A program made the translations under genes and the position numbers. Below, piece by piece: positions 1-46,195 of a stretch of 46,195 nucleotides of DNA. Numbering within the stretch: the stretch's first letter is position 1; each line of letters begins with the position of its first letter. Source of the DNA: a virus; IMG/VR virus record IMGVR_UViG_3300021445_000001, positions 1 through 46,195 of that record; one strand, given 5' to 3'. The notes below the pieces were generated by a model. The model saw only the letters and a program-made list of their open reading frames with translations, made no database searches and was not told the DNA's origin.

Positions 1-127
1 ACCGCGCTTTCACTGTATCTCTCCACTTCTGAATCACTTTGCACTGAGTGATCCTGGCGGTGCCGGGGTTAGAACCCCGGCACCACTAGCTACCTTCAGT
101 ACTTGCATGGGTTTTCGATGATCTGAT
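1..127. repeat. Terminal overlap copy 1 (identical to 46069-46195)
   Basis: Both ends read accgcgctttcactgtatct...gggttttcgatgatctgat. The length of 127 nt equals a common de Bruijn k-mer size. Confidence 0.9.
59..84 (-). terminator. GC-rich hairpin between two minus-strand genes (terminator-like, no U tract)
   Basis: GGTGCCGGGGTT-AG-AACCCCGGCACC with 12-nt arms. It lies between the stop of 96..290 and the start of the gene beginning at 46105 (equivalent to position 37). Confidence 0.35.
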
Positions 128-1768: not shown

Positions 1769-2131
1769 TGGCTTCCTCTCTCCCTTTGACACACGCCATA
1801 GGGCGTGTGCTCTGAGCATGTGTGGTAGTGCCTAGCTGGTGTTGTCACAGCCACTCAGATTGAGCAGAACGGGCAAAGGTGCGACCCACCACACACACTC
1901 ACATTAGGAGAGTTGACAGGGGCTCTAGCCCCTGCTAGGAGAGATCATCCACTATTCAGTTCTCAACAGACCAGCGCCCTCGCCCAACAGTCCTTTCGAG
2001 TCTGCCGGACCGGCTTGCCTTGCAACACCAAAGCTAGACCTGCCGTGGAGTTCTGTCTATAGCCAATTTACTGCATGTTTACCGTCAACACGTTGAACAA
2101 TCGACGTGCCATCTCCCCTGAGCTCAATGTG

Positions 2132-2518
2132 GATCACCGTAGCCGGCTAATTGTTGGATAACGCGTCTAATAGCCGGCTGATCATGGCCCTGAGCTGGGC
2201 ATACATCATTCGATAACGGTGTTATGTTTCTGCAAACATGATCAAACAAGCCGCCGAGTGCCTTTAAGATCACGCAAACGTGATAAGATCGTTGATCTTT
2301 GTTTCAATATTATTGATCTTGATAGTCCGCATAATCTACATTATGCGGAGCCGGCCCCCAGGTCAGACGCAAGATCATTTGCCAAGGCGATGTGGATCAT
2401 GGTCGCTGCCCTTAATGATCATTAAGCCCTTGACATAGCCTCTGACCTGCGGTTTCTCACATTTTGGAAGATCAACTTCTCAGTATGTGGATGATCTTGC
2501 TCGGCCGGCTAAACGATC
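2132..2518. repeat. AT-rich cluster of 13 GATC sites (mostly AAGATCA / TGATCA); candidate pac site or replication origin
   Basis: GATC at 2132, 2180, 2240, 2268, 2287, 2294, 2315, 2373, 2395, 2417, 2470, 2493 and 2515. AAGATCA occurs 3 times on each strand and TGATCA 3 times. There is a 14-bp palindrome TTAATGATCATTAA at 2412-2425 and a hairpin CCGCATAAT-CTAC-ATTATGCGG at 2327-2348. Confidence 0.6.
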
Positions 2519-2608
2519 AACCGGCGGATGTTAAAGCGCAGCGGTGTGGTGTGGTGCTGCAACCCCAAAAAATTTTCCTAGGAAGATGCCAGCAACATGT
2601 CCGGGTTT

Positions 2609-2628
2609 GAACCCCCTTGTGGGGGTTC
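2609..2628 (+). terminator. Hairpin GAACCCCC-TTGT-GGGGGTTC followed by TATTAT (terminator-like)
   Basis: 8-bp GC stem with a tetraloop and a T-rich tail, located in the ORF-free region. Confidence 0.35.
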
Positions 2629-2717
2629 TATTATAACGATTTGGTAAAGGTTTTGAAACCATGCGTCCAGAGGTCGATTTTGGTCGCCCTATTAATATTG
2701 GGGGGTTTTAAAAGAGC

Positions 2718-2982
2718 GGACCGAGCGCAAGCGAGGGACGCGAGGGGGGCCGGTGCGCTCGGTCCTTCCGGTAAGGGCAGGGCATCAAGCCCTGCCCCCC
2801 ACTGATAGGCCGGCCCTTAAGGCCGGCCATATTCCAGGTTACGTAGAAGGGCGGGCCTCAAAGCCCGCCCATGAAAGCACCCCCGCGAGACGCGGGGGTC
2901 CCGGTCCGGTAGAGCAGCCGTCCCGGCTGCATCCCGCCCCCCGCTACCCTCGCGGGGGGCTCTGTGGCCCCCTCCGGGGGCC
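2718..2982. other. Array of eight consecutive GC-rich stem-loops directly upstream of the terminase gene
   Basis: Stems are 2718-2728/2755-2765 (11 bp), 2775-2783/2789-2797 (9), 2808-2815/2821-2828 (8), 2849-2856/2863-2870 (8), 2880-2887/2891-2898 (8), 2914-2920/2924-2930 (7), 2936-2944/2952-2960 (9) and 2966-2972/2976-2982 (7). The stem sequences all differ. Confidence 0.7.
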
Positions 2983-3026
2983 TTTGTGCTGCCCGAAAAT
3001 AATTCCGTAGAAATATCCCGTGGTTT

Positions 3027-4964
3027 ATGAAAACGCTCAGCCCGAAACCTTCCCGACCCGATGCCAAGAGAATTGTTCTGGAAAAGCTTCGTGAAGGTTG
3101 GTCGATTGAGCGTTCGTGTGAATATGTTGGCGTCACCGTCAAGGCGTATGAGTATTGGCTGTACCGGTCCAAGGACCCGAAGGAACGCCAATGGTTTGCC
3201 GACGAGGTTAGACGCATTCGAGCCAAGCAGGCTCAGGCCGGCCCGCCCGAAGTCCCTGACTTCGAAGAGTTCTCCAGTGTCTATCTCGGGAACCGTCTGT
3301 TCGACCATCATCTTCAGTGGCTGGATCTTCTGGAGGGCCGTGAGCCCCGATCCATTCACCCGGCGCAGACCTACATTCCGGGCCACCCGAACCTGCTTCT
3401 GATCAACACTCCCCCGCACCACGCAAAGTCTGAGCTGTTCTGCCAGAACTATGTAACGTGGCGGATCGTGCGCGATCCGAACATGCGGGTGCTGCTGGTG
3501 TCCGCCTCGGCGGACCGGGCGAAGAAAAACCTTGATGGCATCAAGAACCGTCTTGACAAAGACATCATGGTCTATCGGGATCTCAAGGACACGTTTGCTC
3601 CGGCTGAGGGTTACAACTCTAAGGATGCCAAATGGTCCGCGGACATGATCTTGGTGAATCCGGCCATTAGGCCGCGCAACACTTCCGGGCACCCCACGGT
3701 GCAGGCTCTCGGTATTCGCAAGAAGATTTACGGTGCCCGTGCTGACCTCATCATCCTTGACGACTGCTGCGACCTTGACAACGCTCACGAGTTTCAGAAG
3801 CAGATTGAGTGGATCCAGGCGATTATCAACTCCCGCCTTGAGCCGGGAACCGGCAAGCTGATCATCGTAGGGACTCGCCTGGCCGCTCAGGACTTGTATT
3901 CGGAGCTGCGCAAGCCGGAGTGGTATCTGTCTGGTGAGTCGCCGTGGACGTATCTGTCGCAGCCGGCTGTGTTGGAGTTCACCGATAACCCGGAGACCTG
4001 GAAGACCCTGTGGCCGAAGACGAATGTTCCCCCGGCTGGTTTGGATAGGGTCGAGCCTGACGCCAACGGTTTCTATCGCATGTGGGATGGGCCGGCGCTG
4101 GCTGAGAAGCGCAACAACATGTCGGCCGAGATGTGGTCTCGTGTGTACATGCAGGCGCAGATCTCCCAGTCCACCACGTTCACTCAGGCGGAGATTGATG
4201 GCTGCACTAATGGAAGTCGTCACCCCGGGGTCATCAATCCAGGTATGCCAGGAGTCCGTCCCGAGGGCATGGCAGGCCTATATGTCGTGGCTGGATTGGA
4301 TCCGGCTGCTACAAACTATACGGCCATGGTCGTGGTCGGGGCCGACCTGTCATCAGGTCGGCGATATCTGCTTGACGTGTGGAACCAGCACGGAGCCCTT
4401 CCCGCCCAAACATCCGCAGTGATGAAGGAGTGGACCAAGCGTTACGGCATCTCCGAATGGCGCATTGAGGTCAACGCCTTTCAGGCGTCTATCTTGCAGG
4501 ATGAGGATCTACGTTCATGGATGTCTTCACGCTCGGTGAGGATGAGCGCCCACACGACCGGCAAGAACAAGTGGGATTCGATGTGGGGCGTCGCGACGAT
4601 GTCCAACCTGTTCAAGGGCTGGGAGCAGGGATACAACGCGCTGGAGCTGCCGTCTCGAAAAGGCCACCCTGGCGTGCAAGCCCTTGTAGAGCAGTTGGTT
4701 GCCTGGTACCCCACGCCGAACATGAACCGGGCACCTGTCCAAGACTGCGTAATGGCGTTGTGGTTTGCGGAGATTCGCTGCCGTGAACTGCTGGACCAGC
4801 AGGACGGGTCGTCCCACTGGGATTCCGGGTGGCTGTCTCCGAGGGATCGTGAAGAGCAGGTCACCGTGAATATCGACTGGTATTCCATGTCTAATGGTCG
4901 TTTCGATGAACCCCCGGAGCCTGACGGCCCCGTGATACAGAACCCCGCGAGGTGGTGGGAATAA
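3027..4964 (+). CDS. terL: terminase large subunit with N-terminal HTH (small-subunit-like) extension, 645 aa
   Basis: The N-terminus RIVLEKLREGWSIERSCEYVGVTVKAYEYW looks like an HTH. ATPase motifs are NTPPHHAKSE, ADLIILDDCCD and IVGTRLAAQD. The C-terminal nuclease-like region starts at VVAGLDPAATNYTAMVVVG. Confidence 0.85.
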   Translation: MKTLSPKPSRPDAKRIVLEKLREGWSIERSCEYVGVTVKAYEYWLYRSKDPKERQWFADEVRRIRAKQAQAGPPEVPDFEEFSSVYLGNRLFDHHLQWLDLLEGREPRSIHPAQTYIPGHPNLLLINTPPHHAKSELFCQNYVTWRIVRDPNMRVLLVSASADRAKKNLDGIKNRLDKDIMVYRDLKDTFAPAEGYNSKDAKWSADMILVNPAIRPRNTSGHPTVQALGIRKKIYGARADLIILDDCCDLDNAHEFQKQIEWIQAIINSRLEPGTGKLIIVGTRLAAQDLYSELRKPEWYLSGESPWTYLSQPAVLEFTDNPETWKTLWPKTNVPPAGLDRVEPDANGFYRMWDGPALAEKRNNMSAEMWSRVYMQAQISQSTTFTQAEIDGCTNGSRHPGVINPGMPGVRPEGMAGLYVVAGLDPAATNYTAMVVVGADLSSGRRYLLDVWNQHGALPAQTSAVMKEWTKRYGISEWRIEVNAFQASILQDEDLRSWMSSRSVRMSAHTTGKNKWDSMWGVATMSNLFKGWEQGYNALELPSRKGHPGVQALVEQLVAWYPTPNMNRAPVQDCVMALWFAEIRCRELLDQQDGSSHWDSGWLSPRDREEQVTVNIDWYSMSNGRFDEPPEPDGPVIQNPARWWE

Positions 4965-32829: not shown

Positions 32830-32928
32830 GAACAGACTTTACGGAGCCTTCTAGGGCTCCGCCAAACCAATAAAAGGGCCGGCTTGATGCCGGCCCTAAA
32901 AGCTATATAACCGGTTCCCGGTTTCAGT

Positions 32929-32958: not shown

Positions 32959-33003
32959 CTCGACGGGATGATTGTTACCCGATCGTTACGTAAAAATGCT
33001 GCC

Positions 33004-33038: not shown

Positions 33039-33521
33039 ATGGCACAGAACGGGATGACTCTTAACTACGACCTCACCCTACTTGAGCAGGGCAAATATAA
33101 AGAGTGGTTCTGGCTCTCTATGTCACCGGAAGCCCTGTCGTGGCTGAAACGTGATCAATGCCCGAAATGTAAACGAACGCTGGCGCACCCCGCTGCTCGT
33201 TGCCGGTGTGTCGAAGCGGTTAAGCAAGAAGGTCTACCACGATGGGTCAACCGTCAAGGTCTGCTGTGGCGTCTTCAAGCAGCATGTCAGGGTGCCGACA
33301 TAACCATCTTCTTCCCCACGAATCAGGCACTTTACAATCGACCGGATGCGGCATGGCGGAGATATTGCCTGGACTGCCCTGTATCCGATGACTGTACACT
33401 GTCGGCATACGACTCCCGGTCAGAAGGCGTCTGGGGCGGCCGGCCATTCGGTATACCAAAGAGCGCAGATCCTTACGGAACCGGTAAGCGCGGAAGGCGT
33501 CCAAAGAATGCGGGACCATGA
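33039..33521 (+). CDS. WhiB-like Fe-S transcription factor with N-terminal extension and basic AT-hook-like tail, 160 aa
   Basis: AACQGADITIFFP...YCLDCPVSDDCTLSAY...GVWGG (four Cys). C-terminal GTGKRGRRPKN. N-terminal CPKC...CRC. Confidence 0.8.
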   Translation: MAQNGMTLNYDLTLLEQGKYKEWFWLSMSPEALSWLKRDQCPKCKRTLAHPAARCRCVEAVKQEGLPRWVNRQGLLWRLQAACQGADITIFFPTNQALYNRPDAAWRRYCLDCPVSDDCTLSAYDSRSEGVWGGRPFGIPKSADPYGTGKRGRRPKNAGP

Positions 33522-37806: not shown

Positions 37807-38532
37807 GTGCAAGTCTTGACTATTGATCTAGAACTCACACCGATTAAAGCGCACGTCTGGCAGTTGTACGGAAATCAGTCTATTGGACTGAACCAGATAC
37901 AAGATTCACCAAAGCTTTTGTGTGCTGCATTTAAATGGCACGGCGAGGATACGATCTTCTTTGACCGGGGTCCCGCTTTCGGCGGGACGCTGGATCGTAT
38001 CTGGGATTTTATTGATCGTGCTGATGCGGTGGTCACCTGGAACGGCGATAAGTTTGATATCCCGCATCTTAAACGAGAATTCCTCTATGCCGGTTACGGT
38101 CCGCCCAAGCCTTTCGAGAGCCTGGACCTGCTGAAAACCTCGCGCAGAGAATTCCTGTTCCCGTCCAACAAGCTCGACTATGTGGCCGGCCAGCTTCTCG
38201 GCGCGAACAAGCTCCCGCATACCGGCCACCAGCTTTGGGTGGATTGCATGGCTGGGGATGAGGCAGCGTGGGCCTTGATGGAGAAATACAACCGCCGTGA
38301 CGTCTGGCTCACAGACCAATTGTACCCCATCTTTCTGCCGTGGATCAAGAAGCACCCCAACATGAGGTTGATGGACGGTCACGCTGGCTGTCCCCGGTGT
38401 GGTTCGCTCAATCTGCCTCAGAAGCGTGGTTTCCGAACCACTGCCATATCCAAATTTCAGCAATACCAATGCCAGGACTGCAAGGGTTGGTTTCGAGACA
38501 CGAAGAGACTTGATGGAAGTTCAGCCTACTGA
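37807..38532 (+). CDS. RNase H-fold 3'-5' exonuclease (DnaQ/PolB-exo-like) with C-terminal zinc ribbon, 241 aa
   Basis: LTIDLELTP...VTWNGDKFDIPHLKRE...NKLDYVAG...RRDV, and C-terminal CPRCGS...CQDCKG. Confidence 0.7.
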   Translation: MQVLTIDLELTPIKAHVWQLYGNQSIGLNQIQDSPKLLCAAFKWHGEDTIFFDRGPAFGGTLDRIWDFIDRADAVVTWNGDKFDIPHLKREFLYAGYGPPKPFESLDLLKTSRREFLFPSNKLDYVAGQLLGANKLPHTGHQLWVDCMAGDEAAWALMEKYNRRDVWLTDQLYPIFLPWIKKHPNMRLMDGHAGCPRCGSLNLPQKRGFRTTAISKFQQYQCQDCKGWFRDTKRLDGSSAY

Positions 38533-39175
38533 AGAACCCGAGCCGTGGGGCGCTGACGAAGTCAGCAAGATCGTTTATTCTGCGGCAAGGCGCGTGCGGG
38601 GTCGCTTTCATAACTATGTGGAGCTGGACGACCTGATACAGGAAGCGTGGCTGTGCATTTACTCCTCCCCCAAGAAGATGGCTGAGTGGCAGTTCCAGGG
38701 GCAGGCCGGCAAAGGCCGGCTCACCAGAGCAGTGATGAAAGCTTGCTCGCTGTACTCGCAAAAGGTCAAAGCCGCAAGGCTTGGCTACCGTCCGGACGAT
38801 CTGTTCTACTACGGGCCGAAACTGTTCCGCCACATGATCGTGCAGATTCTGGAAGCCATCGGGGAGAACGAGAACTACGAGAACTTTCCGGATCGTGCGG
38901 TGTGGGTGGATGTGGAGACTGCCCTACTCACCCTGTCGGACTCGGACTATCAAATCATCTGGTGGGCTTTCAAAGGCGACTTGGACGAAGAGGAAGGATA
39001 CGCGAATGTGGCAAGCCATCTTGGGCTCACTCCTGATGCAGCTCGACAGCGTGTCAACCGGATTCTTCGGCGCATGCAGAACACTTTGGGTGGAGAGAAT
39101 CCGACGCCGCGCCGTAAGGCGCGATCCAATGCACAAGCAGCGGCGGAACTTCTAGCACAGTGGGAAGGTGACTAA
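38513..39175 (+). CDS. sigma-70 family (ECF-like) factor candidate, 220 aa
   Basis: Region 2-like LDDLIQEAWLCIY. Region 4-like LSDSDYQIIWWAF...YANVASHLGLTPDAARQRVNRILRRMQNTL. Confidence 0.6.
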   Translation: MEVQPTEEPEPWGADEVSKIVYSAARRVRGRFHNYVELDDLIQEAWLCIYSSPKKMAEWQFQGQAGKGRLTRAVMKACSLYSQKVKAARLGYRPDDLFYYGPKLFRHMIVQILEAIGENENYENFPDRAVWVDVETALLTLSDSDYQIIWWAFKGDLDEEEGYANVASHLGLTPDAARQRVNRILRRMQNTLGGENPTPRRKARSNAQAAAELLAQWEGD

Positions 39176-45894: not shown

Positions 45895-46105
45895 TGGAAC
45901 CCACCTTGATGCACGTCTTGCAGGTGATCTCCACGTCAGAGTTCATGTTGTGGCGGACACCACGAGCCTTTCGGCCACACAGCGTGAAGTTCTCTCGGAT
46001 GTAGGACCAGTTCCCATCGGATGTGGCGTGAATGACGCCGTTGAGCCCGTCCGACAGCATTGCCCCAAACCGCGCTTTCACTGTATCTCTCCACTTCTGA
46101 ATCAC
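45887..46105 (-). CDS. hypothetical protein, 72 aa (CxxC at C-terminus); start lies inside the terminal overlap
   Basis: ORF track. The start at 46105 corresponds to position 37 of the circle. Confidence 0.55.
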   Translation of the reverse strand: MIQKWRDTVKARFGAMLSDGLNGVIHATSDGNWSYIRENFTLCGRKARGVRHNMNSDVEITCKTCIKVGSND

Positions 46106-46195
46106 TTTGCACTGAGTGATCCTGGCGGTGCCGGGGTTAGAACCCCGGCACCACTAGCTACCTTCAGTACTTGCATGGGTTTTCGATGATCTGAT
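46069..46195. repeat. Terminal overlap copy 2 (identical to 1-127)
   Basis: Read directly from the sequence. Confidence 0.9.

What the first reader, a model, noticed from the sequence alone, without database searches (positions are those of the whole stretch)
2718..2982. Eight back-to-back GC-rich hairpins between the AT-rich region and the terminase start
The 265 nt consist almost entirely of stem-loops with 7-11 bp perfect stems, 3-7 nt loops (the first has a 26-nt loop) and only 2-20 nt between them. Stem sequences are all different, so this is not a repeat family or a CRISPR array. None has a U tract, so they are not classical intrinsic terminators.

ORFs called across this stretch (2753-3010 plus strand, the 5' end of 2817-4223 minus strand) are Pro/Arg/Gly-rich artefacts.

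Possible roles:
- a structured leader or processing platform for the late operon;
- a barrier separating leftward early and rightward late transcription;
- part of the packaging recognition region.
Basis: seen in the sequence. Interest (0 to 1): 0.65.

Follow-up and report, generated by a model that had tools for sequence, protein, structure and literature searches.

The report
Hairpin-array leader of phage late operon
The eight GC-rich hairpins are real and sit just downstream of a conserved late-promoter-like box and upstream of the terminase gene; the same promoter-plus-hairpin-array module occurs in mycobacteriophages L5 and D29, where published RNA-seq shows it is transcribed, but what the array does is still unknown.

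Summary
Window 2718-2982 has eight perfect stem-loops of 7-12 bp. Shuffles of the same sequence give 0.33 on average and at most 3.

The window is a circularly assembled genome of about 46 kb. It is a temperate actinobacteriophage with a serine integrase, a WhiB-like protein and a sigma-like protein.

The array begins 13 nt after a promoter-like box, TATTAATATTGGGGGG (2690-2705), and ends 45 nt before the terminase start. The box aligns with the box at the L5 late start site and its counterparts in other Cluster A mycobacteriophages and Streptomyces phage FlowerPower. In L5 and D29, published RNA-seq places the late start about 230 bp from the left end. That is on the box and just upstream of L5's own run of six hairpins.

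All 28 metagenomic relatives with upstream sequence, and about 36 Cluster A genomes, carry 1-9 such hairpins at this position. Stems change by compensatory double substitutions. The array keeps its distance to the promoter but not to the cos end.

My reading is a transcribed, structured 5' leader of the late operon that works through generic hairpin stability. Likely roles are protection from RNases and Rho; none was tested. Seven hairpins lack a U tract; the last has TTTGTG. An attenuator or a DNA-level role is not excluded: wobble pairs are almost absent and loops flip orientation.

The parts
2607..2634 (+). Upstream sigma-70-like promoter match (TTGAAC-16-TATTAT) that encloses the hairpin 2609-2628. 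It is a possible second rightward start upstream of the array.
   Evidence: Promoter and terminator scan. The hairpin GAACCCCC/GGGGGTTC is replaced in L002 by GAACCAGC/GCTGGTTC, which still pairs.
2690..2705 (+). Late-promoter-like box TATTAATATTGGGGGG. The candidate -10 is TAATAT (2693-2698), followed by a G run where transcription is predicted to start.
   Evidence: The box occurs once in the genome. Anchored on the G run, it aligns with L009 CAGGTACTTATATATAATGAGGGG, Cluster A CAGGTACTTATATTATGAGGG, L5 228-240, Veracruz about 150-170 and FlowerPower about 378-397. L5 and D29 late transcripts start at about 230 (PMC5712189).
2700..3026 (+). Predicted untranslated 5' leader of the late (terminase-portal-head-tail) operon, about 320 nt. 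Roughly 63% of its bases are paired in the minimum-free-energy fold.
   Evidence: No conserved ORF. No Rfam family.
2718..2765 (+). Hairpin 1: a 12-bp stem (GGACCGAGCGCA/TGCGCTCGGTCC) enclosing a 24-nt loop that carries the clade-invariant AGCG(A/G) motif.
   Evidence: In 13 relatives GAGC, AGCG and GCTC are invariant, while the outer stem covaries: CC/GG, CG/CG, AT/AT, TC/GA, TG/CA.
2775..2797 (+). Hairpin 2: GGGCAGGGC-ATCAA-GCCCTGCCC.
   Evidence: The positional counterpart in L001 is GGGCGGGC/GCCCGCCC.
2808..2828 (+). Hairpin 3: GGCCGGCC-CTTAA-GGCCGGCC.
   Evidence: The orthologues are L001 GGCCGGCC-CTTGAA and L002 GGCGAGCC-TCTAAG-GGCTCGCC, which has a compensated stem and a flipped loop.
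2849..2870 (+). Hairpin 4: GGGCGGGC-CTCAAA-GCCCGCCC.
   Evidence: The orthologues are L001 GGCGGCC-CTTAAA-GGCCGCC and L002 GCCGGCC-TTGAG-GGCCGGC.
2879..2899 (+). Hairpin 5: ACCCCCGCG-AGA-CGCGGGGGT.
2914..2930 (+). Hairpin 6: GCAGCCG-TCC-CGGCTGC.
2936..2960 (+). Hairpin 7: GCCCCCCGC-TACCCTC-GCGGGGGGC.
2966..2991 (+). Hairpin 8: GGCCCCC-TCC-GGGGGCC, followed by TTTGTGCTG. It is the only member with a terminator-like tail and sits 45 nt before the terminase ATG.
   Evidence: The terminator scan flags it. The genome's own gene-end terminators have similar TTT(T)G tails. Distant relatives carry a conserved G-rich/C-rich hairpin followed by TTTAATGGTT at the equivalent place.
3027..4964 (+). Terminase large subunit, the first gene of the late operon. 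It carries an N-terminal extension, and no separate small-terminase gene precedes it.
   Evidence: Pfam Terminase_6C. Nucleotide similarity of 64-81% over parts of the gene to terminase genes of Streptomyces phages. 76-87% amino-acid identity to 28 IMG/VR loci.

Best explanation
The eight hairpins form the structured, untranslated 5' leader of the phage's single long late (packaging, head and tail) operon.

Transcription is inferred to start in the G run of a conserved late-promoter box (2690-2705), as at the L5/D29 late promoter Pright. RNA polymerase then transcribes about 320 nt made almost entirely of stable GC stem-loops before reaching the terminase start codon.

The hairpins appear to act generically, through stability rather than sequence. 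Stems are free to change as long as pairing is kept. Loops vary and even flip orientation. The number of hairpins ranges from 1 to 9 among relatives.

The most likely job, which is inferred and not shown, is to armour a long ribosome-free leader. Successive stem-loops would leave no long single-stranded stretch where Rho could load or where RNase E or RNase J could enter. That would secure the stability and processivity of a late transcript of about 25 kb.

- Shown here: the hairpins exist, pairing is conserved, the array is coupled to the promoter box, and the box aligns with a leader known to be transcribed.
- Inferred: the transcription start in this phage, action at the RNA level, and the protective function.
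For: **The structure is real.**
- Eight perfect hairpins against a shuffle mean of 0.33 and maximum of 3.
- The centroid fold keeps all eight.

**Genomic position.**
- The flanking genes are divergent: minus-strand ORFs at 96-1819 and the terminase at 3027 on the + strand.
- The box occurs once in the genome, which fits a single late operon running 3027 to about 27.8 kb.

**Similarity to an experimentally transcribed leader.**
- The box in the window, in the metagenomic relatives (CAGGTACTTATATATAATGAGGGG) and in Cluster A phages (CAGGTACTTATATTATGAGGG) aligns nearly base for base.
- L5 has the box at 228-240, six back-to-back GC hairpins at 234-389, and gene 1 at 411.
- RNA-seq of L5 and D29 places the late start about 230 bp from the left end and shows transcription continuing to the gene 32-33 terminator (PMC5712189; about 250 bp).
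- A flanking element is shared as well: L5 CCCTATAGAGGGGTGACTCAAC and L006 GCCTATAGAGGGTACTCACACC.

**Pairing is under selection.**
- In 19 Cluster A leaders, 9 of 27 predicted pairs show double-sided compensatory changes. Hairpin 5 has 4 of 8 covarying pairs and none broken.
- Between the window, L001 and L002, orthologous hairpins have compensated stems.
- The outer stem of hairpin 1 covaries in 13 relatives.

**The array tracks the promoter, not the genome end.**
- It begins 0-3 nt after the box in Cluster A, while its distance from cos ranges from about 225 to 540 nt.

**The array does not stop transcription in the L5/D29 system.**
- Seven of eight hairpins lack U tracts.
- Mycobacterial RNA polymerase does not terminate at U-less hairpins in vitro (PMC3993855).
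- Late transcripts in L5 and D29 read through.

**Mild strand asymmetry.**
- Unpaired positions are A-rich on the sense strand, at 32-50% A.
- The AT skew of +0.23 at 2701-2900 is the highest in the first 8 kb.

**Context for the protective role.**
- Mycobacterial RNase E is rate-limiting for most mRNAs, affects leadered transcripts most, and cleaves disproportionately in 5' UTRs (PMC10641625).
Against: - No transcript data exist for this phage. The start site is inferred only from alignment to the L5/D29 box.
- The -35 region is poor, so an activator or the phage's sigma-like protein would be needed.
- Stems are almost all perfect: 79 of 107 in the window's clade and 69 of 79 in Cluster A.
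- G.U wobbles are no commoner than A.C mismatches: 4 against 7, and 2 against 3. That is not the usual signature of selection acting on one RNA strand only.
- Loops flip orientation between orthologues, which points to events at the DNA level in the palindromes.
- Unpaired cytidines are not depleted, so there is no specific signature of avoiding RNase E or Rho.
- Some relatives manage with only 1-2 hairpins, so a large array is not essential.
- The last hairpin looks like a real terminator, which a purely protective leader does not need.
Confidence: 0.45

Rival explanations
1. Attenuator or antitermination gate, analogous to lambda pR'-tR' with Q. The late promoter fires, but the hairpins, and above all the last one with its TTTGTG tail, pause or terminate RNA polymerase in the leader. 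A phage early product then makes the polymerase terminator-resistant, and this sets late timing.
For: - Hairpin 8 plus TTTGTG matches the scan's terminator pattern and the style of this genome's own terminators.
- Distant relatives conserve a hairpin followed by TTTAATGGTT about 100 nt before the terminase.
- Hairpin 1 has a covarying stem that presents an invariant AGCG(A/G) motif. It could be a recognition element.
- Clusters of hairpins have been proposed to act together as terminators (PMC8355165).
- From my own memory of Ingham et al. 1995, not checked here, U-less terminators were reported in actinophage phiC31.
Against: - Seven of the eight hairpins have no U tract.
- Mycobacterial RNA polymerase, even with NusA and NusG, does not terminate at U-less hairpins.
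- L5's array has no U-tailed member.
- The L5/D29 RNA-seq papers report no short leader RNA that accumulates early.
- No Q-, N- or put-like element was found. There is no Rfam hit, and the loops are neither conserved nor fixed in orientation.
Confidence: 0.2
2. A DNA-level element. The perfect palindromes would act as DNA hairpins or cruciforms, or as a physical feature of duplex DNA. Candidate uses are terminase recognition next to cos or pac, replication initiation next to the AT-rich, GATC-rich region, or supercoil-dependent control of the adjacent promoter.
For: - Stems are perfect Watson-Crick palindromes with essentially no wobble tolerance and no G.U over A.C asymmetry.
- Loops invert between orthologues.
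- The region lies just upstream of the terminase and next to an AT-rich stretch with 13 GATC sites in 460 nt.
- Three independent relative contigs (L010, L012, L020) begin within about 10 nt of each other at the 5' edge of hairpin 1. That could mark a physical DNA end.
Against: - In lineages with defined ends, the array keeps a fixed distance to the promoter box but a variable distance to cos, about 225-540 nt in Cluster A and about 450 nt in FlowerPower.
- The stems all differ, so no sequence-specific dimeric protein can recognise them.
- GC stems of 7-9 bp extrude poorly as cruciforms (general knowledge).
- The absence of wobbles can also be explained by quasipalindrome correction through template switching, without any DNA-level function (inference).
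- The contig starts could equally be transcript 5' ends, if those datasets are metatranscriptomes.
Confidence: 0.12
3. No dedicated function. Short GC palindromes would arise and persist in a non-coding spacer through template-switch mutation. The spacer itself exists only to hold the promoter and the ribosome-binding site.
For: - Copy number varies widely, from 1 to 9.
- Stems turn over.
- Perfect arms and flipped loops are what template switching produces.
Against: - The array is kept at the same place in at least three actinophage lineages with very different flanking genes.
- In Cluster A, individual hairpins are positionally conserved, with many compensated changes and no broken pairs.
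- No other non-coding region of the window shows such a density.
Confidence: 0.1
4. A free-standing non-coding RNA of about 280 nt, running from the box to hairpin 8 plus TTTGTG. It would have its own function, such as a decoy or sponge, and the terminase would be expressed by read-through or from another start.
For: - A promoter-like box lies at the 5' end and a terminator-like hairpin at the 3' end.
- Cluster A phages do make abundant, stable non-coding RNAs from their other terminal promoter, Pleft.
Against: - The L5 Pleft non-coding region shows no comparable run of back-to-back perfect hairpins.
- L5's Pright leader has no terminator and runs straight into gene 1.
- No second promoter-like box was found between the array and the terminase.
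Confidence: 0.08

Closest known systems
Pright late-operon leader at the left end of Cluster A mycobacteriophages (L5, D29, Veracruz and others)
   Same: - The promoter box is nearly the same sequence.
- A run of 5-6 (L5-like) or more GC-rich perfect hairpins follows immediately.
- The spacers are similar (TATAGAG type) and some loops are shared (CTTGAA, TTGAG).
- The first late gene follows.
- RNA-seq shows late transcripts starting at the box.
   Different: - The window has 8 hairpins, including a long-loop first hairpin with an AGCG(A/G) motif that was not seen in Cluster A.
- The window has a terminator-like last hairpin.
- The first gene is the terminase large subunit rather than an HNH or gp1-type gene.
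- No stoperator was recognised next to the box.
- I found no paper that describes or tests the hairpin array itself.
5'-terminal stem-loop and polypurine mRNA stabilisers (E. coli ompA leader; B. subtilis ermC, aprE, SP82 and cryIIIA STAB-SD; cited from general knowledge, not checked here)
   Same: - Stable hairpins at or near the 5' end of an untranslated leader.
- They act by structure rather than sequence.
- In Cluster A the first hairpin starts within a few nt of the predicted start site.
   Different: - Known stabilisers are one or two elements, not tandem arrays of 5-9.
- In the window the first stem begins about 13-18 nt after the predicted start.
- No stability measurement exists for this leader.
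Lambda pR'-qut-tR' (6S RNA) late-gene antitermination, and the nut/boxB and HK022 put leader RNAs
   Same: - A promoter followed by a structured leader of about 200-300 nt.
- In the window, a terminator-like hairpin sits just before the late genes.
   Different: - No Q, N or put homologue or motif was found.
- The loops are not conserved and flip strand.
- Seven of the eight hairpins lack U tracts.
- The L5 version has no terminator.
Hairpin clusters and U-less 'I-shaped' intrinsic terminators proposed for Actinobacteria (PMC8355165; disputed by PMC3993855)
   Same: Several GC-rich hairpins less than 15-20 nt apart, without U tracts.
   Different: - Those are defined downstream of stop codons at operon ends.
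- This array lies at an operon start and is read through in L5 and D29.
REP/BIME extragenic palindromes and CRISPR repeats
   Same: Clustered short GC-rich palindromes in non-coding DNA.
   Different: - There is no shared repeat sequence, no other copies in the genome and no regular repeat-spacer structure.
- No Rfam hit.

Membership tests
Cluster A-type Pright late-operon leader (promoter box plus hairpin array) | Conserved box (G)TAnTTATAT..T(G)A/GGGGG at the late start site | tested here: met
   Window 2690-2705 aligns, anchored on the G run, with the relatives, L5, Veracruz, other Cluster A phages and FlowerPower.
Cluster A-type Pright late-operon leader (promoter box plus hairpin array) | Run of back-to-back GC-rich hairpins immediately downstream of the box and upstream of the first late gene | tested here: met
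   Window hairpins at 2718-2982 and the terminase at 3027. L5 hairpins at 234-389 and gene 1 at 411. About 36 Cluster A genomes show the same layout.
Cluster A-type Pright late-operon leader (promoter box plus hairpin array) | Late transcripts start at the box and run through the array | not testable with these tools
   Shown by RNA-seq only for L5 and D29. No expression data exist for the window's phage.
Intrinsic (Rho-independent) terminator | GC-rich stem-loop | tested here: met
Intrinsic (Rho-independent) terminator | U-rich tract immediately 3' of the stem | tested here: not met
   Seven of eight 3' flanks have no T run on either strand. Only 2966-2982 has TTTGTG.
Intrinsic (Rho-independent) terminator | Located at the end of a transcription unit | tested here: not met
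   The array lies between divergent genes, at the start of the late operon.
CRISPR array or REP-type repeat family | Copies share one repeat sequence | tested here: not met
   All stems differ and no direct-repeat family is present.
Protein-recognised leader hairpins (boxB/nut-like) | Conserved loop sequence on one strand with covarying stems | tested here: not met
   Loops vary (ATCAA, CTTAA, CTCAAA, AGA, TCC and others). Orthologous loops occur in both orientations, for example CTTGAA and TCTAAG. Some loops are conserved within Cluster A (AACC, ACCA), but those phages share ancestry.
cos/pac packaging recognition site | Fixed position relative to the physical genome end, with repeated terminase-binding sequence motifs | tested here: inconclusive
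   The window's termini are unknown, because the assembly is circular with a 127-bp overlap. In relatives with known ends the distance from the array to the end varies from 225 to 540 nt. The hairpins share no sequence motif.
Any curated RNA family (Rfam 15) | Covariance-model score at or above the gathering threshold | tested here: not met
   Only tRNAs pass. The best hit in the region is SorX at 23 bits against a threshold of 46.6.

The most novel reading that the evidence does not exclude
The promoter-coupled array of ever-changing perfect palindromes may be a distinct regulatory device of actinobacteriophage late operons. It could act at the DNA level, for example through structure- or supercoil-dependent control of the late promoter. 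Or it could be a hairpin cascade that gates late transcription until an unidentified phage factor, perhaps one recognising the invariant AGCG(A/G) loop of hairpin 1, converts RNA polymerase. Either way it would help explain how late timing is set in L5- and D29-like phages, where the late activator is still unknown.
Probability: 0.2. Interest if true: 0.7.

Novelty: new variant of a known kind. Interest (0 to 1): 0.45.

Why it matters
How late genes are switched on and kept highly expressed in L5, D29 and related actinobacteriophages is still unresolved. These phages are used for mycobacterial genetics and for phage therapy.

The work here shows that a promoter box plus tandem-hairpin leader is conserved, with compensatory evolution, from soil metagenomic phages to L5, D29 and Streptomyces phages. 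That gives a concrete element to delete in cultured phages. If the array stabilises or insulates long transcripts, it could also be reused as a leader part for expression in Actinobacteria.

Tried and rejected
- **Rfam.** Searches of the window, the region at a relaxed E-value, and eight related loci found nothing but tRNAs.
- **Prophage relatives for host assignment.** The search of bacterial genomes found none.
- **ECF-type promoter GGTAAM-N14-17-CGTS.** There are 3 matches against 1 expected, so it is not a genome-wide motif.
- **Strand test.** G.U against A.C counts in imperfect stems show no asymmetry, and the counts are too low to decide between RNA and DNA.
- **C-free single-stranded spacers as avoidance of RNase E or Rho.** This holds visually in one subclade. 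Over whole leaders, though, unpaired C is 12-34%, so I rejected it as a general property.
- **Similarity to the L5 Pleft non-coding RNA region.** That region has no comparable run of back-to-back perfect hairpins.
- **Pattern scan TATAGAGGG..ACTCA.** It was too unspecific: 120 or more mostly chance hits.
- **BLAST of the promoter box against GenBank phages.** It returned nothing, probably because of low-complexity masking.
- **The box as the cos site.** I rejected this for L5 and FlowerPower, whose ends lie about 230-380 nt away.
- **Literature.** Searches found no description of the hairpin array.

Full report
**1. The observation**

Window 2718-2982 contains eight perfect stem-loops. Stems are 7-12 bp, loops 3-7 nt (24 nt for the first), and gaps 5-20 nt. 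Each folds at -11 to -28 kcal/mol. The RNAfold centroid of 2700-3030 keeps all eight, with z = -4.8 on the + strand and -5.4 on the - strand.

Seven short-loop hairpins lie in the 265 nt. One thousand dinucleotide-preserving shuffles average 0.33 and never exceed 3, and no other 265-nt window of the genome has more than 5. The stems all differ. Seven lack a T run on either side. The eighth (2966-2982) is followed by TTTGTG, and the scan scores it as terminator-like. Open frames across the region differ in strand and frame among relatives, so they are not genes.

**2. Context**

The first and last 127 nt of the window are identical. The window is therefore a circular assembly of a genome of about 46.07 kb. 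Its genes include:

- terminase large subunit (3027-4964), portal, major head protein and tail/lysin proteins on the + strand;
- a family A DNA polymerase, primase and DnaB-like helicase;
- a WhiB-like protein, a sigma-like protein and a large serine integrase;
- five tRNAs.

This is a temperate actinobacteriophage. The genes to the left of the region (96-1819) are on the minus strand, so the region is a divergent control region.

Gene-end terminators elsewhere in the genome are GC hairpins with short TTT(T)G tails. Only hairpin 8 of the array has such a tail.

**3. Relatives**

The terminase protein retrieved 28 IMG/VR loci at 76-87% identity. Every locus with enough upstream sequence has GC-rich perfect hairpins at the same place: about 7-9 in the nearest relatives (L001, L002) and 1-4 plus two other conserved hairpins in the rest.

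The shared architecture runs in this order:

1. GTAAC-type repeats.
2. A box of the form TATATATA(A/G)TGAGGGG.
3. A long hairpin.
4. The hairpin array.
5. A final hairpin with a T-rich tail.
6. The terminase gene.

In the long hairpin, GAGC, AGCG and GCTC are invariant in 13 sequences while the outer stem covaries. Between the window, L001 and L002, positionally equivalent hairpins differ by compensated changes, for example GGCCGGCC/GGCCGGCC against GGCGAGCC/GGCTCGCC. Their loops are sometimes reverse complements of one another.

**4. Link to characterised phages**

A side search led to Cluster A mycobacteriophages. L5's left end carries these features:

| Feature | L5 coordinates |
|---|---|
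| Stoperator | 200-212 |
| Box TACTAATGAGGGG | 228-240 |
| Six back-to-back GC hairpins | 234-389 |
| CCCTATAGAGGGGTGACTCAAC | after the hairpins |
| Gene 1 | 411 |

Anchored on the G run, the box of the metagenomic relatives (CAGGTACTTATATATAATGAGGGG) and that of Cluster A (CAGGTACTTATATTATGAGGG) are almost identical. The window's TATTAATATTGGGGGGTTTTAAAAGAG matches Veracruz CATTAACATTGGGAGGGGTAAAAGAG. Streptomyces phage FlowerPower, whose terminase gene is similar to the window's at the nucleotide level, has TATATATATACTGGGGG about 380 nt from its left end, followed by two hairpins.

Dedrick et al. 2017 report that L5 and D29 late transcripts start about 230 bp from the left end and run to the gene 32-33 terminator. 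A 2025 preprint puts Pright at about 250 bp. So in L5 and D29 the equivalent array is the transcribed 5' leader of the late operon, and it is read through. I found no paper that mentions the hairpins.

**5. Selection on pairing, and what the array tracks**

In about 36 distinct Cluster A left ends, the array of 5-6 hairpins begins 0-3 nt after the box. The distance from the cos end to the array ranges from about 225 to 540 nt. RNAalifold on 19 Cluster A leaders finds 9 of 27 pairs with double-sided compensatory changes. Hairpin 5 has four covarying pairs out of eight and none broken. The array therefore belongs to the promoter and transcript unit, not to the genome end, and its pairing is maintained.

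**6. RNA or DNA?**

- *For RNA on the sense strand.* The position is immediately downstream of a mapped start site in L5 and D29. Unpaired positions are A-rich, and there is a local AT-skew peak.
- *Against a simple RNA-only picture.* In the window's clade 79 of 107 hairpins are perfect, and in Cluster A 69 of 79. G.U wobbles are as rare as A.C mismatches: 4 against 7, and 2 against 3. Loops flip.
- *A possible reconciliation.* These features fit palindrome maintenance by template switching, which would keep the arms perfect whatever the level of selection. They also leave room for a DNA-level role.
- *No C depletion.* Unpaired cytidines are not depleted, so there is no specific signature of avoiding Rho or RNase E.

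**7. Mechanism**

The best-supported reading is a structured late-operon leader acting through generic hairpin stability. About 63% of the window's leader is paired. The longest visibly unstructured stretch is the roughly 45 nt before the ATG.

In actinobacteria, RNase E is rate-limiting for most mRNAs and cuts preferentially in 5' UTRs. Untranslated RNA is also the natural target of Rho (general knowledge). Protection of a leader that feeds a transcript of about 25 kb is therefore the most economical function, at confidence 0.45.

The main rival is an attenuator or antitermination gate centred on hairpin 8, at 0.2. [quoted passage not shown] The remaining rivals are:

| Rival | Confidence |
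|---|---|
| DNA-level function | 0.12 |
| Non-functional palindrome accumulation | 0.10 |
| Free-standing small RNA | 0.08 |

**8. Comparison and novelty**

The element is not a terminator cluster, a CRISPR array, a REP family or any Rfam family. It shares the tested sequence features (box, array, position before the first late gene) of a promoter-plus-hairpin-array leader found in Cluster A mycobacteriophages, Beephvirinae-like Streptomyces phages and a soil metagenomic clade. The one remaining feature, transcription from the box, could not be tested here.

Structured leaders and 5' hairpin stabilisers are known. A conserved tandem array of 5-9 hairpins that evolve by compensation at the head of a late operon appears to be undescribed, and its function is untested.

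**9. Verdict**

The finding is real and conserved. Its position is explained; its function is not. Interest is moderate (0.45).

Noticed in passing
window 1-127 and 46069-46195: The first and last 127 nt are identical, including the hairpin at 59-84 and 46127-46152. The window is therefore a circularly assembled complete genome of about 46,068 bp, and its physical termini are unknown.
   Followed up: yes
L003-L027 about 100 nt upstream of the terminase; L031, L034, L037, L045/L062, L048, L051, L057-L059; Veracruz (L064) 176-196: A 21-nt motif, CCYTCCTTWAATGGTTYCCCC, is conserved before the terminase in the window's distant relatives. The window itself has only a vestige at about 2976-2995. The motif also occurs in unrelated phage contigs of 28-66% GC, usually in non-coding DNA near terminase genes, in either orientation, with extra flanking C residues. 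In L037 and L059 its reverse complement lies just upstream of an ORF that looks like a small terminase subunit on manual translation (not scanned against any profile library). About 14 chance hits are expected by my own rough estimate for a uniform-composition collection. The occurrence in AT-rich genomes and the C-rich flanks suggest a real, unexplained element.
   Followed up: partly
L010, L012, L020 (contig starts): Three independent metagenomic contigs start within about 10 nt of each other, just after the promoter box at the 5' edge of the long hairpin, and extend only rightward into the late operon. These could be transcript 5' ends, if the datasets are metatranscriptomes, or physical DNA ends. 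I could not tell which.
   Followed up: partly
window 2130-2520: The AT-rich stretch holds 13 GATC sites in about 460 nt, or 28 per kb against 5.8 per kb genome-wide. Most are in a (T/A)GATCA context. This may be an operator or origin-like cluster upstream of the late promoter.
   Followed up: partly
window 2609-2628: The hairpin GAACCCCC-TTGT-GGGGGTTC is followed by TATTATAACGATTTGGTAAAG. In L002 it is replaced by the compensated GAACCAGC-TTAG-GCTGGTTC with the same downstream sequence. It lies inside a sigma-70-like promoter match (2607-2634, + strand) and opposite a minus-strand match (2657-2630).
   Followed up: partly
window 2633-2650 and 32965-32990: GTAAC/GTTAC-type short repeats (TAACGATTTGGTAAAG; TTGTTACCCGATCGTTACG) occur upstream of both the late promoter box and the WhiB-side early region. 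Relatives have GGTAACGATTTGGTAACG. These may be regulator binding sites.
   Followed up: no
window 32842-32897: Two further GC hairpins (CGGAGCC-TTCTAG-GGCTCCG and AGGGCCGGC-TTGAT-GCCGGCCCT), followed by AAAAGCTATATAACC, lie in the divergent region between the DNA polymerase (minus strand) and the WhiB-like gene (plus strand). This looks like a smaller version of a hairpin-plus-TATA arrangement.
   Followed up: no
window 3027-3240: The terminase large subunit has an N-terminal extension of about 70 aa with no Pfam match, and no separate small-terminase gene lies between the promoter and the terminase. FlowerPower likewise has the terminase large subunit as gene 1.
   Followed up: no
window 38399-39175 and 33039-33521: The phage encodes a sigma-like protein (weak Sigma70_r2 match, PHROG sigma-factor families) and a WhiB-like regulator. 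These are candidates for the factor that activates the late promoter, which has a poor -35 region.
   Followed up: no
L019 1-45: The contig begins with a Nextera adapter sequence (TCGTCGGCAGCGTCAGATGTGTATAAGAGACAG). This is an assembly artefact in the public record.
   Followed up: no
Veracruz L064 296-330: Within the Veracruz-type array, one hairpin (AGACCGCCG...CGGCGGTCT) is preceded by AAAA. On the minus strand it therefore reads as a canonical terminator with a TTTTGT tail, pointing towards the cos end.
   Followed up: no
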